Shown in pieces: positions 6,453 to 15,403 of a DNA stretch of 64,000 nucleotides. The stretch's first letter is position 1. Each line of letters begins with the position of its first letter. A model generated the notes under the pieces. It was not told the DNA's origin and made no database searches. It saw only the letters and a list, made by a program, of their open reading frames with translations. The position numbers were made by a program, and so were the translations under genes. The stretch covers positions 32,001 through 96,000 of IMG/VR virus record IMGVR_UViG_3300020159_001521. One strand, 5' to 3'. Origin of the DNA: a virus.

Positions 6453-6804
6453 CGTGTAACAACTTTATTTCCAAAGCCAAATCATTGTCAAAATTAAGAG
6501 CTATAACAGGATTCACCTTTGTCTTACTCCCCTCCTTAACCAACACTCCTATCCTCTTGAGCTTAGATATAATATTATATATCGTAGCTTCAGAGCTAGA
6601 ATGCTTCTTACAAAACTCTTCCCTATTATTAGCATAAGAAATATTCCCCTTAATAGCTGTAAAAGCAACAAGCTGTATTTCCCTCTCTGTCAAATTCAAA
6701 TCATTAACATCAGACAATATCCTATAATACTTCTGAGCTAACAAATAATTGTCAGACAATTGTCGTTTAAGCTTCTGTGAAATAATCCTTCTATTCGTTT
6801 CCAT
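6442..6804 (-). CDS. Winged-helix (RepL-like) DNA-binding protein
   Basis: LTEREIQL...SEATIYNIISKLKRIGVLVK...VNP. Confidence 0.65.
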   Translation of the reverse strand: METNRRIISQKLKRQLSDNYLLAQKYYRILSDVNDLNLTEREIQLVAFTAIKGNISYANNREEFCKKHSSSEATIYNIISKLKRIGVLVKEGSKTKVNPVIALNFDNDLALEIKLLHDGD

Positions 6805-7147: not shown

Positions 7148-7358
7148 AATAAGTAAAATTTAATCATCATCATCTATTCCCACCCCCCACCCTGTAAAGA
7201 TAAGGAGTGTACAAGTAAAAAATAAAACATTTTTCCTACAGAAGTCCAAAATAAAGCTACAATCCTTTCCCAGCCTGTCTAAAAAATTTTTTTCCCAAGG
7301 CCCTTTGTAAGACAATATCCCCCTCCTTTAACCAAAAATCATCAATGCCCCCTACATT

Positions 7359-7400
7359 AAAAAATGTTTTGTGTCTATGAAAAAATGTTTTGTGTCCATG
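7359..7400. repeat. 21 bp tandem repeat (2 copies)
   Basis: AAAAAATGTTTTGTGTCTATG followed by AAAAAATGTTTTGTGTCCATG. Confidence 0.9.
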
Positions 7401-8173: not shown

Positions 8174-8335
8174 ATGAAGACATTTATCATTACACTTGTA
8201 GGATGGGACGGTCCTATTAAGTCAGAGTATTGTTATGGATCTAATAGACAAGAGGTTTATTCTATGTATAGGAATGAATATCCTGTTTCTGATTATCCTC
8301 AAATACAATACATTGATGTAGCTGAGGTATTATAA
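8174..8335 (+). CDS. Small hypothetical protein (53 aa, not in ORF track)
   Basis: MKTFIITLVGWDGPIKSEYCYG...DVAEVL*, followed by terminator. Confidence 0.7.
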   Translation: MKTFIITLVGWDGPIKSEYCYGSNRQEVYSMYRNEYPVSDYPQIQYIDVAEVL

Positions 8336-8358
8336 GAGCCTGTAACAGGGCTCTTTTT
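8334..8358 (+). terminator. Rho-independent terminator
   Basis: AAGAGCCTGTAACAGGGCTCTTTTT. Confidence 0.8.
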
Positions 8359-8362
8359 AAAA

Positions 8363-8821
8363 TACGTTCTGTTTAATCCACAGATAGTATGTCCTATATG
8401 ATAAGAAATGGTGTGATAGCCATAAGGGACTGTACTGTTACAAGGTAACAGCAGGATGATCACCTGATGATGAACTTCTGAATAATCTATTCCTAACCTA
8501 GCAATAGGGACAGCCATAACACCTGTAAGTTGGATAAATTAGGGTGTTTTAATGCACCATTCTCACGTGGATATAAAGACTTCTTAAGATTGGCAGGATG
8601 TATGATTCCGTCTATAGGATTTGCCTGTAGGTAATCCATATCCTTAAGATGTAAAACCACACTGATACTATAGGTTCGTCCCTATTATTTACAATCTGGA
8701 AGCAGAGCGTAACAGAATCAGTCTCCCAAGGGTGAGCAGTTGTAATCTCCTTTTACATAATTCTGGAGTTAAATAGGGGATTTAACGTAGAACCAGTTAC
8801 AACTGAGTGCAGAGAGAAATA
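8363..8821 (+). ncRNA. Candidate large structured RNA with twister-ribozyme-like core
   Basis: No plausible plus-strand ORF; many complementary arms; UAA-UGCA-CC...CUCAC...UCCCAAGG-GUGAG-CAGUUGUAA...UUACAACUG-AG-UGCA-GAGAGA layout. Confidence 0.6.
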
Positions 8822-8906
8822 ATTGTTATGTTGGAGGTTATATATGCTCCCGAGCAGGTGCAAGGCCTGCATTTTTCTTTTATTCATTCACCAAAACCAC
8901 GTTATT

Positions 8907-9119
8907 ATGAAAGATTATTTAATGGGAACCATAGTGGTTCTATGTGTGCTTCTTCTATTTATAGAAGCTGTAAAGAGTGTTAGGTCTCAGCCTGATGACA
9001 CACAATTTCAGTTTGTTGTGACAGACTCTATGATGTCTGTGTATAACAATGATGTATATGTAGGCACTGTTAGGGTGCAAGGACAATTAGATTCATTATT
9101 AGTAGACTATAATCAATAA
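8907..9119 (+). CDS. Small membrane-anchored protein
   Basis: ATG 8907, N-terminal TM helix. Confidence 0.7.
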   Translation: MKDYLMGTIVVLCVLLLFIEAVKSVRSQPDDTQFQFVVTDSMMSVYNNDVYVGTVRVQGQLDSLLVDYNQ

Positions 9120-14921: not shown

Positions 14922-15365
14922 GGGGGTAACATGGTTTTGATTCAGTTATGAGTGGTAAGTAAACATGCGGAGATAAGTACTAGATCTCCTTAAACTCTGT
15001 ACAAACAATAAACGCTAAGACACAATCTCAGCGTGTTTCTGAAGGTGAAGCAATCCTTGCTTCTCTCTTCTCTGATGTAGCAGTTGCTGCATAAGGAACG
15101 GGGTAGTCATACCTGGCAACAGAAAATGACAAGTGTAAGACTATGAGACATCTTATAGTGACTTACCATCTAATGCTGAAGATGTAAATAGACAGTTTTT
15201 CCCAGTTTCGCAAAATTGGGTGGTGGATTCGACCATAACAGGTCAGCCCTACGGTGCAAATTGTCAAGTTTTTCGAACAGAAAACTTGACATTAGTACTA
15301 AGCATGTGATACGTTTTACTTATTGGCTTTAACTGAAGACGCAGGTTCGAATCCTGCTACCTCCA
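14922..15365 (+). ncRNA. ssrA: tmRNA
   Basis: 5' GGGGGUA pairs with 3' UACCUCC including G3.U; discriminator A; T-arm GCAGG-UUCGAAU-CCUGC; GCAUG helix elements; tag ORF 15014-15094 after AAUAAAC ending VAA*. Confidence 0.95.
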
Positions 15366-15403
15366 CTCAGATGTGTGCTTAATCTGGAATAAGAAGACAA
15401 TCC

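What the first reader, a model, noticed from the sequence alone, without database searches (positions are those of the whole stretch)
8545..8821. Twister-ribozyme-like core with a ~155 nt insertion in L4
Seen: elements in the order of a P1-type twister. These are UAA (putative U|A cut at 8550/8551), P2 UGCA 8553-56 / UGCA 8808-11, T2 CC 8557-58 / GG 8730-31, P4 CUCAC 8562-66 / GUGAG 8732-36, L4 UCCCAAGG, a perfect 9 bp P5 (8737-45 / 8797-8805) and a 3' GA-GAGA. Unusual features: two extra stems (GUGG/CCAC 8567-8660 and ACUGAU/AUCAGU 8661-8722) sit between P4 and the L4 motif; T1 has an A-C mismatch unless it shifts to UCUC 8722-25; P1 is weak. Inference: an expanded, possibly regulated or repurposed self-cleaving RNA in the early transcript.
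Basis: partly seen in the sequence, partly recalled or inferred. Interest (0 to 1): 0.8.

Follow-up and report, generated by a model that had tools for sequence, protein, structure and literature searches.

The report
Expanded twister ribozyme in crAss-like phage
This gene-free stretch of an uncultured crAss-like phage encodes a genuine relative of the self-cutting twister ribozyme carrying a conserved two-hairpin arm inside one loop; it belongs to a large phage RNA family that the standard RNA catalogue (Rfam) misses, and cutting itself is untested.

Summary
It is not chance: window 8545-8821 is one copy, the only one in this 113.7-kb phage genome, of an RNA family found in well over 100 IMG/VR phage contigs.

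The family core matches type-P1 twister position by position:
- the U|AA cleavage site
- a 4-bp P2
- a 2-bp T2
- P4 closed by the loop UCCCAAGG
- GA followed by GGG (T1)
- P1

All of these helices covary, including both pseudoknots. The putative catalytic A and G are nearly invariant.

It has two conserved, covarying arms between the P4 5' strand and L4, and P4 covaries across the insert.

Rfam 15 twister models hit none of these. The family lacks P3 and has a large P5.

The window copy has one C.A mismatch in T1, so its activity is likely but uncertain.

The most likely role is self-cleavage at 8550/8551. That would end an upstream conserved ncRNA and start a roughly 330-nt RNA that stops at the 8854-8870 terminator.

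Other agents in this scan reported the same family on other genomes. I class it as a new variant of a known kind.

The parts
8545..8549 (+). P1 5' strand UGUUU; pairs with 8817-8821
   Evidence: Sequence. Flank complementarity in the family exceeds partner shuffles: 0/1000 and 0/2000 shuffles reach the observed value. All 5 P1 pairs covary.
8550..8552 (+). UAA; predicted cleavage between U8550 and A8551. A8551 corresponds to the twister general-acid adenine.
   Evidence: N is U in 125/134 copies. Both A's are kept in every one of the 81 rows selected for a correctly aligned 5' half, but A at these two columns was itself a selection criterion. They are independently invariant in all 53 rows of alignment A1. 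Matches UAA of RF03160.
8553..8556 (+). P2 5' strand UGCA; pairs with 8808-8811
   Evidence: Family variants are compensated: UGUA/UACA, UGCG/CGCA, UGUG/CACA.
8557..8558 (+). T2 5' strand CC; pairs with G8730 and G8731
   Evidence: Family: CC/GG, UC/GG and one UC/GA. RF03160 has GC/GC at the same places.
8562..8566 (+). P4 5' strand CUCAC; pairs with 8732-8736 across the insert
   Evidence: P4 is 98.3% paired across the insert in 24 insert-type members, including CCUAC/GUAGG and CUCAU/AUGAG. In compact members 5/5 pairs covary.
8567..8660 (+). Arm A. Outer stem GUGG 8567-70/CCAC 8657-60. Conserved internal loop AUAUAAAG 8571-78 / AAAA 8653-56. Inner stem 8579-86/8645-52 with a conserved U.U. 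Variable tip 8587-8644.
   Evidence: The same module is in 24 unique relatives. The outer stem covaries GUGG/CCAC with GUAG/CUAC.
8661..8722 (+). Arm B. Stem ACUGAU 8661-66/AUCAGU 8717-22 with a variable interior that includes a T-arm-like hairpin AUAGG-UUCGUC-CCUAU.
   Evidence: The stem covaries in relatives: CUGAUUA/UAAUCAG, AAUGAUU/AAUCAUU, AAUAACU/AGUUAUU. Interior from the MFE fold.
8724..8731 (+). L4 strand UCCCAAGG. CCC 8725-27 is the T1 5' strand and GG 8730-31 is the T2 3' strand.
   Evidence: UCCCAAG is identical to the RF03160 consensus loop and invariant in the family.
8732..8736 (+). P4 3' strand GUGAG
   Evidence: See the P4 5' strand.
8737..8805 (+). P5. Base helix 8737-46/8796-8805. 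It encloses hairpin CUCC 8747-50/GGAG 8765-68, hairpin UUAAAU-AGGGG-AUUUAA 8769-85 and the single strand CGUAGAACCA 8786-95.
   Evidence: The P5 base is almost invariant in sequence in the family. The interior module recurs in at least 8 loci, inside or outside a twister. Hairpin 1 covaries: CUCC/GGAG against CCUG/CAGG in L021.
8808..8811 (+). P2 3' strand UGCA
   Evidence: See the P2 5' strand.
8812..8816 (+). G8812 (position of the twister general-base guanine), A8813, and the T1 3' strand GAG 8814-16
   Evidence: G in 78/81 and A in 81/81 aligned members. T1 is GGG in the family and covaries to CAC/GUG in 5 members. The window has C8726.A8815, as does L336.
8817..8821 (+). P1 3' strand AAAUA
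   Evidence: See the P1 5' strand.
8364..8548 (+). Context: a separate conserved non-coding RNA whose 3' end would be made by the cleavage
   Evidence: 73% identical over 194 nt to a stretch of L311 that lies between tRNA-like genes. No Rfam hit.
8831..8888 (+). Context: conserved hairpin GGAG 8833-36/CUCC 8847-50, then an intrinsic terminator (stem 8854-70 and a T run). This is the likely 3' end of the ribozyme-bearing RNA.
   Evidence: Terminator scan. The same element follows twisters in L257, L270, L218 and L255, and occurs in L290, L273 and L305.

Best explanation
Window 8545-8821 (+ strand) encodes a type-P1 twister-class self-cleaving ribozyme. It belongs to a large, uncatalogued family of crAss-like and other uncultured phages. 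The RNA folds into the twister double pseudoknot (P1, P2, P4, T1, T2). It has a large P5 that holds a conserved module. Like a recurrent subclass of the family, it carries two extra hairpin arms between the 5' strand of P4 and the L4 strand. It is expected to cut itself between U8550 and A8551. That cut would create the 3' end of the conserved non-coding RNA just upstream (8364-8548). It would also create the 5' end of a roughly 330-nt RNA that carries the ribozyme and ends at the terminator at 8854-8870. In this reading the ribozyme acts as a processing mark inside an array of small phage RNAs. Shown: homology, fold, covariation, and conservation of the catalytic positions. Inferred: cleavage, transcript boundaries, and what the arms and the P5 module do.
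For: Family size: two exact 18-mers each hit at least 119 IMG/VR contigs. There are 134 unique copies by regex and 116 covariance-model hits in 92 loci. Fold in compact members: overall 91.7% of cells paired against 85.1% in shuffles (0/500 reach it), against 32-46% for slid partners; P4 is 5/5 covarying pairs and 99.2% paired. Compensated variants: P2 UGUA/UACA (11), UGCG/CGCA (4), UGUG/CACA (1); T1 CAC/GUG (5) and CCA/UGG (1); T2 UC/GA (1). Catalytic positions: the cleavage-site A's are invariant in all 53 rows of A1 and in the 81 selected rows; G after P2 in 78/81. P1: complementarity is above partner shuffles in both compact and insert classes. Insert subclass: 24 members share the window's arms, with covariation in P4 across the insert, in the arm A outer stem and in arm B. 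Match to twister: the RF03160 consensus and real clostridial twisters show the same order and motifs, including UGCA for P2 and CAC/GUG for T1. Orientation: 112 of 121 copies point the same way as the next ORF and nearly all are intergenic. Punctuation role: the upstream RNA's homologue in L311 is followed by a tRNA-like gene instead of a twister. Tolerance: C.A mismatches in this pseudoknot were among the better tolerated in a large cleavage assay (PMC11662667, read).
Against: No Rfam 15 twister model (P1, P3, P5 or sister) hits the window, its insert-type relatives or its compact relatives, even at E<=10 on 141 bases. The window's T1 has a C.A mismatch (GAG rather than GGG). T1 is otherwise kept in about 95% of copies, so this copy may cut poorly. 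An insertion on the 5' side of L4 is not part of the published twister consensus, and its effect on folding is unknown. The promoter is not identified. The folding energy is not unusual (z -1.24). The loci were gathered with exact patterns from the core, which inflates apparent conservation of P5, L4 and P2.
Confidence: 0.62

Rival explanations
1. The element has the twister fold, but this particular copy is catalytically weak or dead because of the T1 mismatch. It would be a decaying copy, or one kept for a function that does not need cutting.
For: T1 is CCC/GGG or the compensated CAC/GUG in about 95% of aligned copies. The window has C.A in the middle pair. Pseudoknot imperfections lower cleavage on average (PMC11662667). 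Clearly degenerate copies exist in close relatives; L021 has lost its P4 3' strand and has a P2 mismatch.
Against: Every other core position of the window copy is consensus, and P1 is better than average. The only T1 mismatches seen in the family are single C.A pairs (L336, L266, L314), which suggests they are tolerated. C.A was among the better tolerated mismatches in the assay. A shifted 4-bp pairing UCUC 8722-25/GAGA 8814-17 is also available.
Confidence: 0.22
2. The whole family uses the twister fold mainly as a scaffold that presents variable RNA (the P5 interior and the arm tips) or binds a phage or host protein. Cleavage would be secondary or absent.
For: The first 9-10 bp of P5 are nearly invariant in sequence while P4 covaries freely. 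That points to a sequence-specific constraint which twister catalysis does not need. P5 interiors and arm tips are hypervariable, 44-185 nt. A conserved module sits in P5 in some copies and in a stand-alone P5-like hairpin in others.
Against: The cleavage-site A's and the G after P2 are conserved, which a mere scaffold would not require. P1 flanking the cut site covaries. The scaffold and cleavage roles are not mutually exclusive.
Confidence: 0.12
3. The resemblance is chance, or the conserved sequence works at the DNA level (for example a recombination or protein-binding site) rather than as RNA.
For: Folding energy is not significant. Rfam gives no hit.
Against: Compensatory changes in six helices, including two pseudoknots, are not expected for a DNA site or a chance match. 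There is a strand bias towards the downstream gene.
Confidence: 0.02

Closest known systems
Type-P1 twister self-cleaving ribozyme (Roth et al. 2014; Rfam RF03160; e.g. rice Osa-1-4, whose P4/L4 is CCGGUCCCAAGCCCGG as quoted in PMC11662667)
   Same: The order of elements is the same: P1, N|AA, P2, T2, P4, an L4 containing UCCCAAG, P2', GA, the T1 partner, P1'. It has the double pseudoknot. A follows the cut site and G follows P2. P5 sits at the published optional position. One relative (L256) even has a hairpin at the canonical P3 position. Clostridial twisters found here share UGCA for P2 and CAC/GUG for T1.
   Different: T2 is CC/GG rather than GC/GC. There is no P3, which 78% of known twisters have (PMC6154101). 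P5 is always present and large, whereas about 1% of known twisters have one. The P5 base is sequence-invariant. The UAAA linker is replaced by P5 plus AG. In the window's subclass, two conserved hairpin arms of about 155 nt lie between the P4 5' strand and L4, a position with no optional stem in the published consensus. No Rfam twister model reports it.
Twister-sister ribozyme (Rfam RF02681)
   Same: A similar P4 terminal loop sequence, as the review PMC6154101 notes for twister against twister-sister.
   Different: The family shows the T1/T2 double pseudoknot with covariation and the twister cut-site context. RF02681 gives no hit.
Ribozyme and tRNA 'punctuation' of phage and bacterial transcripts (twister, hammerhead, pistol and hatchet near phage genes; PMC6765202)
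   Same: Intergenic, co-oriented with the downstream genes, and lying next to other small RNAs. A relative (L028) also carries a Hatchet ribozyme at 82 bits and a tmRNA-like gene.
   Different: Here the neighbours are non-coding RNAs and a terminator rather than protein genes. Processing has not been shown.

Membership tests
Twister ribozyme class (structural definition) | Cleavage dinucleotide N-A followed by A, lying between P1 and P2 | tested here: met
   U8550 A8551 A8552. Both A's are invariant in all 53 rows of alignment A1 and are present in all 81 rows, where A at these columns was a selection criterion. N is U in 125/134.
Twister ribozyme class (structural definition) | P2 helix flanking the core | tested here: met
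   UGCA/UGCA in the window. Compensated variants in relatives: UGUA/UACA, UGCG/CGCA, UGUG/CACA.
Twister ribozyme class (structural definition) | P4 hairpin whose loop carries UCCCAAG-type L4 | tested here: met
   CUCAC/GUGAG with UCCCAAGG. P4 covaries in compact members (5/5 pairs) and in insert-type members (98.3% paired). In the window the loop also holds two extra arms.
Twister ribozyme class (structural definition) | Pseudoknot T1 (L4 CCC with GGG 3' of P2) | tested here: inconclusive
   Met for the family: CCC/GGG, with compensated CAC/GUG in 5 members and CCA/UGG in 1. The window has 2 Watson-Crick pairs and a central C8726.A8815 mismatch.
Twister ribozyme class (structural definition) | Pseudoknot T2 (2 bp between L2 and L4) | tested here: met
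   CC 8557-58 with GG 8730-31. Relatives have UC/GG (wobble) and UC/GA (compensated). This is compensatory relative to GC/GC in RF03160.
Twister ribozyme class (structural definition) | Conserved G (general base) and A directly 3' of P2 | tested here: met
   G8812 A8813. G in 78/81 and A in 81/81.
Twister ribozyme class (structural definition) | Site-specific self-cleavage giving 2',3'-cyclic phosphate and 5'-OH ends | not testable with these tools
Rfam twister families RF03160, RF03154, RF02684 (and twister-sister RF02681) | Covariance-model score at or above the gathering score | tested here: not met
   No hit at E<=10 on the window, on relatives, on a compact relative alone or on the whole genome. 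The RF03160 consensus includes P3 and has no P5, which explains the miss.
Phage 'expanded twister' subclass (defined here) | Arm A (GUGG..AUAUAAAGACUUCUUA..UAAGAUGUGAAA..CCAC) and arm B (CUGAUUA..UAAUCAG) between the P4 5' strand and YUCCCAAGG | tested here: met
   The window matches the regex-defined module, as do 24 unique relatives.

The most novel reading that the evidence does not exclude
The two conserved arms and the module-bearing P5 turn the twister into a controlled or cargo-carrying device. The arms join the core at the P1-proximal end of T1, next to the cut site. They could dock a protein, a tRNA-like partner or a small ligand and so gate cleavage. Alternatively, the invariant P5 base and the hypervariable interiors could make the ribozyme a self-trimming scaffold that presents variable RNA segments. 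Either would be a natural allosteric or scaffold twister, which has not been described.
Probability: 0.15. Interest if true: 0.85.

Novelty: new variant of a known kind. Interest (0 to 1): 0.6.

Why it matters
What twister ribozymes do in nature is still an open question (PMC6765202). This family offers three things:
- It has hundreds of natural variants in phages that the standard catalogue cannot see.
- Its subclass has a conserved extra domain at a position where no optional stem is known, which tests how much the twister fold tolerates.
- Its genomic setting, at the boundary between small non-coding RNAs and ending in a terminator, makes a processing role directly testable.

A covariance model for this family would also improve annotation of crAss-like phage genomes.

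Tried and rejected
- **BLAST against named phages.** BLASTN of the region and of 6 kb around it found nothing.
- **Too-short pattern.** Longer patterns worked.
- **Rfam.** At the gathering score and at E<=10 there was no twister, hammerhead, hatchet, pistol or large-RNA hit in the region.
Infernal on the sequence with 8567-8722 removed could not be run, because edited sequence cannot be submitted. Natural compact relatives that equal that deletion were scanned instead and gave no Rfam hit.
- **Folding energies.** The 501-nt region on either strand and the 277-nt element are not significant.
- **Genome scan.** The genome-contig scan gave mostly chance hits in high-GC bacteria. True members were found only in MAG contigs that look like mis-binned phage, so no host could be named.
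- **Weak RF03160 hit.** A 20-bit hit in one MAG (L343) is a different, weak candidate and was dropped.
- **Literature access.** Roth et al. 2014 is not held under the id I tried, and the supplements of PMC11662667 are not held.
- **Literature searches.** Searches for phage or crAss twister variants found no description of this family.
- **Arm A internal loop.** I considered a kink-turn or loop-E identity, but the sequence does not fit the canonical motifs, so it is left unnamed.
- **Arm B replacing P1.** I considered and rejected this. P1 complementarity is as strong in insert-type copies as in compact ones.

Full report
**Setting.** The window is bases 32001-96000 of a 113.7-kb IMG/VR virus record with direct terminal repeats. 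Its portal protein is about 25% identical to portals of Crassvirales and related Bacteroidota phages. Minus-strand structural genes end near 6800, and a long plus-strand block starts near 7400.

The finding lies in an ORF-poor stretch between two plus-strand intrinsic terminators, at 8338-8358 and 8854-8870. Rfam at its gathering scores finds only a tmRNA-like gene in the window, at 14922-15368. A permissive scan of 8200-9000 finds no ribozyme family.

**Observation.** P1 is better than described: UGUUU 8545-49 pairs with AAAUA 8817-21.

**It is a family, not a coincidence.** The closest syntenic relatives (L020 and L021, 90% identity in the neighbouring protein) share only short blocks of this region.

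From these loci I extracted 134 unique copies.

The compact consensus is: (P1) U|AA UGCA CC AYAA CUCAC UUCCCAAGG GUGAG CAGUUGUAAU [variable 44-185 nt] AUUACAACUG AG UGCA GAGGG (P1').

A covariance model built from 53 compact copies finds 116 hits in 92 loci. In the window it finds only 8695-8826 (39.8 bits, E 9e-9). Motif searches of the whole phage genome turned up no second copy.

**Is it twister?** I obtained the Rfam RF03160 consensus by finding real twisters in Clostridia genomes. It reads ccuuUAAcgCcGCC[P3]GcCGGUCCCAAGCCCGggUAAAgGcgGAGGGaagg. The phage family has the same order of elements and the same UAA, UCCCAAG and GAGGG.

It differs in four ways:
- T2 is CC/GG rather than GC/GC.
- It has no P3.
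- It has a large P5.
- It has AG in place of the UAAA linker.

These differences, above all the missing P3 and the long P5, plausibly explain why no Rfam twister model reports any member.

Covariation supports every helix:
- On alignment A1, P4 has compensatory changes in all 5 pairs and is 99.2% paired, and all 5 P1 pairs covary.
- The structure as a whole beats 500 shuffles and all slid controls.
- A descriptor search and the model-based alignment show P2 as UGUA/UACA (11), UGCG/CGCA (4) and UGUG/CACA (1).
- They show T1 as CAC/GUG (5) and CCA/UGG (1), and T2 as UC/GA (1) plus U.G wobbles.
- The A's after the cut site are invariant in all 53 rows of A1.
- The G after P2 is kept in 78/81.
- P1 complementarity exceeds partner-shuffled controls.

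This is the twister double-pseudoknot fold with its catalytic positions conserved.

**The 'insertion'.** The window's 155 nt between the P4 5' strand and L4 is a recurrent subclass. Twenty-four unique relatives have the same layout:
- the P4 5' strand
- arm A: GUGG, the conserved loop AUAUAAAG, an inner stem ACUUCUUA/UAAGAUGU with a conserved U.U, a variable tip, GAAA, then CCAC
- arm B: CUGAUUA..UAAUCAG around a variable interior
- one spacer nucleotide
- UCCCAAGG and the P4 3' strand

P4 is 98.3% paired across the insert, including CCUAC/GUAGG and CUCAU/AUGAG. The arm A outer stem switches between GUGG/CCAC and GUAG/CUAC. Arm B shows several compensated versions.

The published twister consensus has optional stems P0, P3 and P5 only (PMC6154101; PMC11662667). 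A domain at this position is therefore a new architectural variant.

**The window copy.** All core positions are consensus except T1, where the 3' strand is GAG rather than GGG. This gives a C8726.A8815 mismatch.

The other T1 mismatches in the 81 aligned members are also single C.A pairs (L336, L266, L314). A large cleavage assay found C.A among the better tolerated mismatches in this pseudoknot, which that paper calls PK2 (PMC11662667). I therefore rate this copy as probably, but not certainly, active.

Its P5 holds a module: hairpin CUCC/GGAG, hairpin UUAAAU-AGGGG-AUUUAA, then CGUAGAACCA. The module recurs in at least 8 loci, sometimes inside a twister P5 and sometimes in a separate P5-like hairpin.

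**Likely role.** Copies are intergenic and co-oriented with the next ORF in 112 of 121 cases.

In the window the ribozyme follows a 185-nt conserved non-coding RNA (8364-8548). Its homologue in L311 sits between tRNA-like genes and is followed by a tRNA-like gene rather than a twister.

The ribozyme is followed by a conserved hairpin plus terminator (8831-8888), which also follows twisters in other contigs.

The simplest reading is a self-processing mark. Cleavage at 8550/8551 trims the upstream RNA and starts a roughly 330-nt RNA that ends at the terminator. Cleavage, transcript ends and any regulation by the arms are inference. No RNA data could be obtained.

**An open point.** The first 9-10 bp of P5 are almost invariant in sequence while P4 covaries freely. 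This suggests an additional sequence-specific constraint, such as a tertiary contact or a protein. It is the basis for the more novel scaffold or regulated-ribozyme reading.

**Novelty.** I found no description of this family or of an L4-side domain in the papers library. Rfam 15 does not detect it. Other agents in this scan reported the same family on other genomes. Their notes agree with mine, but they are not independent evidence. I class this as a new variant of a known kind.

Noticed in passing
window 14922-15368 (+): tmRNA-like gene. Rfam RF00023 scores 78.7 bits over the full model, but ARAGORN finds nothing. Similar hits lie a few kb from the twister in relatives L028 (8424-8820) and L198 (885-1274). 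These phages appear to encode a tmRNA-like RNA.
   Followed up: no
window 8364-8548 (+): A separate conserved non-coding RNA directly upstream of the ribozyme. It is 73% identical over 194 nt to a stretch of L311 that lies between two tRNA-like genes. No Rfam family matches.
   Followed up: partly
window 8831-8888 (+): A conserved two-hairpin element ending in an intrinsic terminator. It directly follows twisters in L257, L270, L218 and L255 and also occurs in L290, L273 and L305. Its GGAGG plus ATG looks like a ribosome-binding site and start codon, but it is part of the first hairpin, so the ORF 8823-9119 probably starts later (ATG 8907).
   Followed up: partly
window 8769-8796 (+); also L021 5418-5447, L028 2638-2672, L123, L043, L113, L281: The near-invariant module UUAAAUAGGGGAUUUAACGYAGAACCAG (a hairpin with an AGGGG loop plus a single strand) occurs inside twister P5 in some phages and in a stand-alone P5-like hairpin in others. 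Function unknown.
   Followed up: partly
window 8338-8358 (+); L021 4757-4780 and 5206-5230; L224: The same terminator hairpin (GAGCCTGTAACAGGGCTC plus a T run) is reused almost letter for letter in otherwise unalignable regions of relatives. In some copies it lies immediately upstream of a twister cut site. 27 of 134 twisters have TTTT within 12 nt upstream of the cut site.
   Followed up: partly
L028 191-325 (+): A Hatchet ribozyme (RF02678, 82.4 bits) on the same relative contig that carries twister-family copies and a tmRNA-like gene.
   Followed up: no
L043 905-1027 (-) and L311 3657-3779 (-): A variant that keeps UAA-like CAA, P2, P5 with the module, and GAGAG, but has no P4 stem (CU AA CCC GUAAA GG). 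It may be a P4-less or decayed twister form.
   Followed up: no
L256 1037-1160 (+): One family member carries a hairpin (CACACA GAAA UGUGUG) at the canonical twister P3 position, between T2 and P4.
   Followed up: no
L231 and L153 (arm interiors); window 8671-8686: tRNA T-arm-like hairpins (GGGUUCAAUUCCC) sit inside the variable parts of the arms in some members. The window has a similar AUAGG-UUCGUC-CCUAU hairpin in arm B.
   Followed up: no
window 7356-7397 (+): A tandem 21-nt direct repeat (ATTAAAAAATGTTTTGTGTCT, second copy 90% identical) in the divergent region between the structural and early gene blocks. It may be a regulatory site.
   Followed up: no
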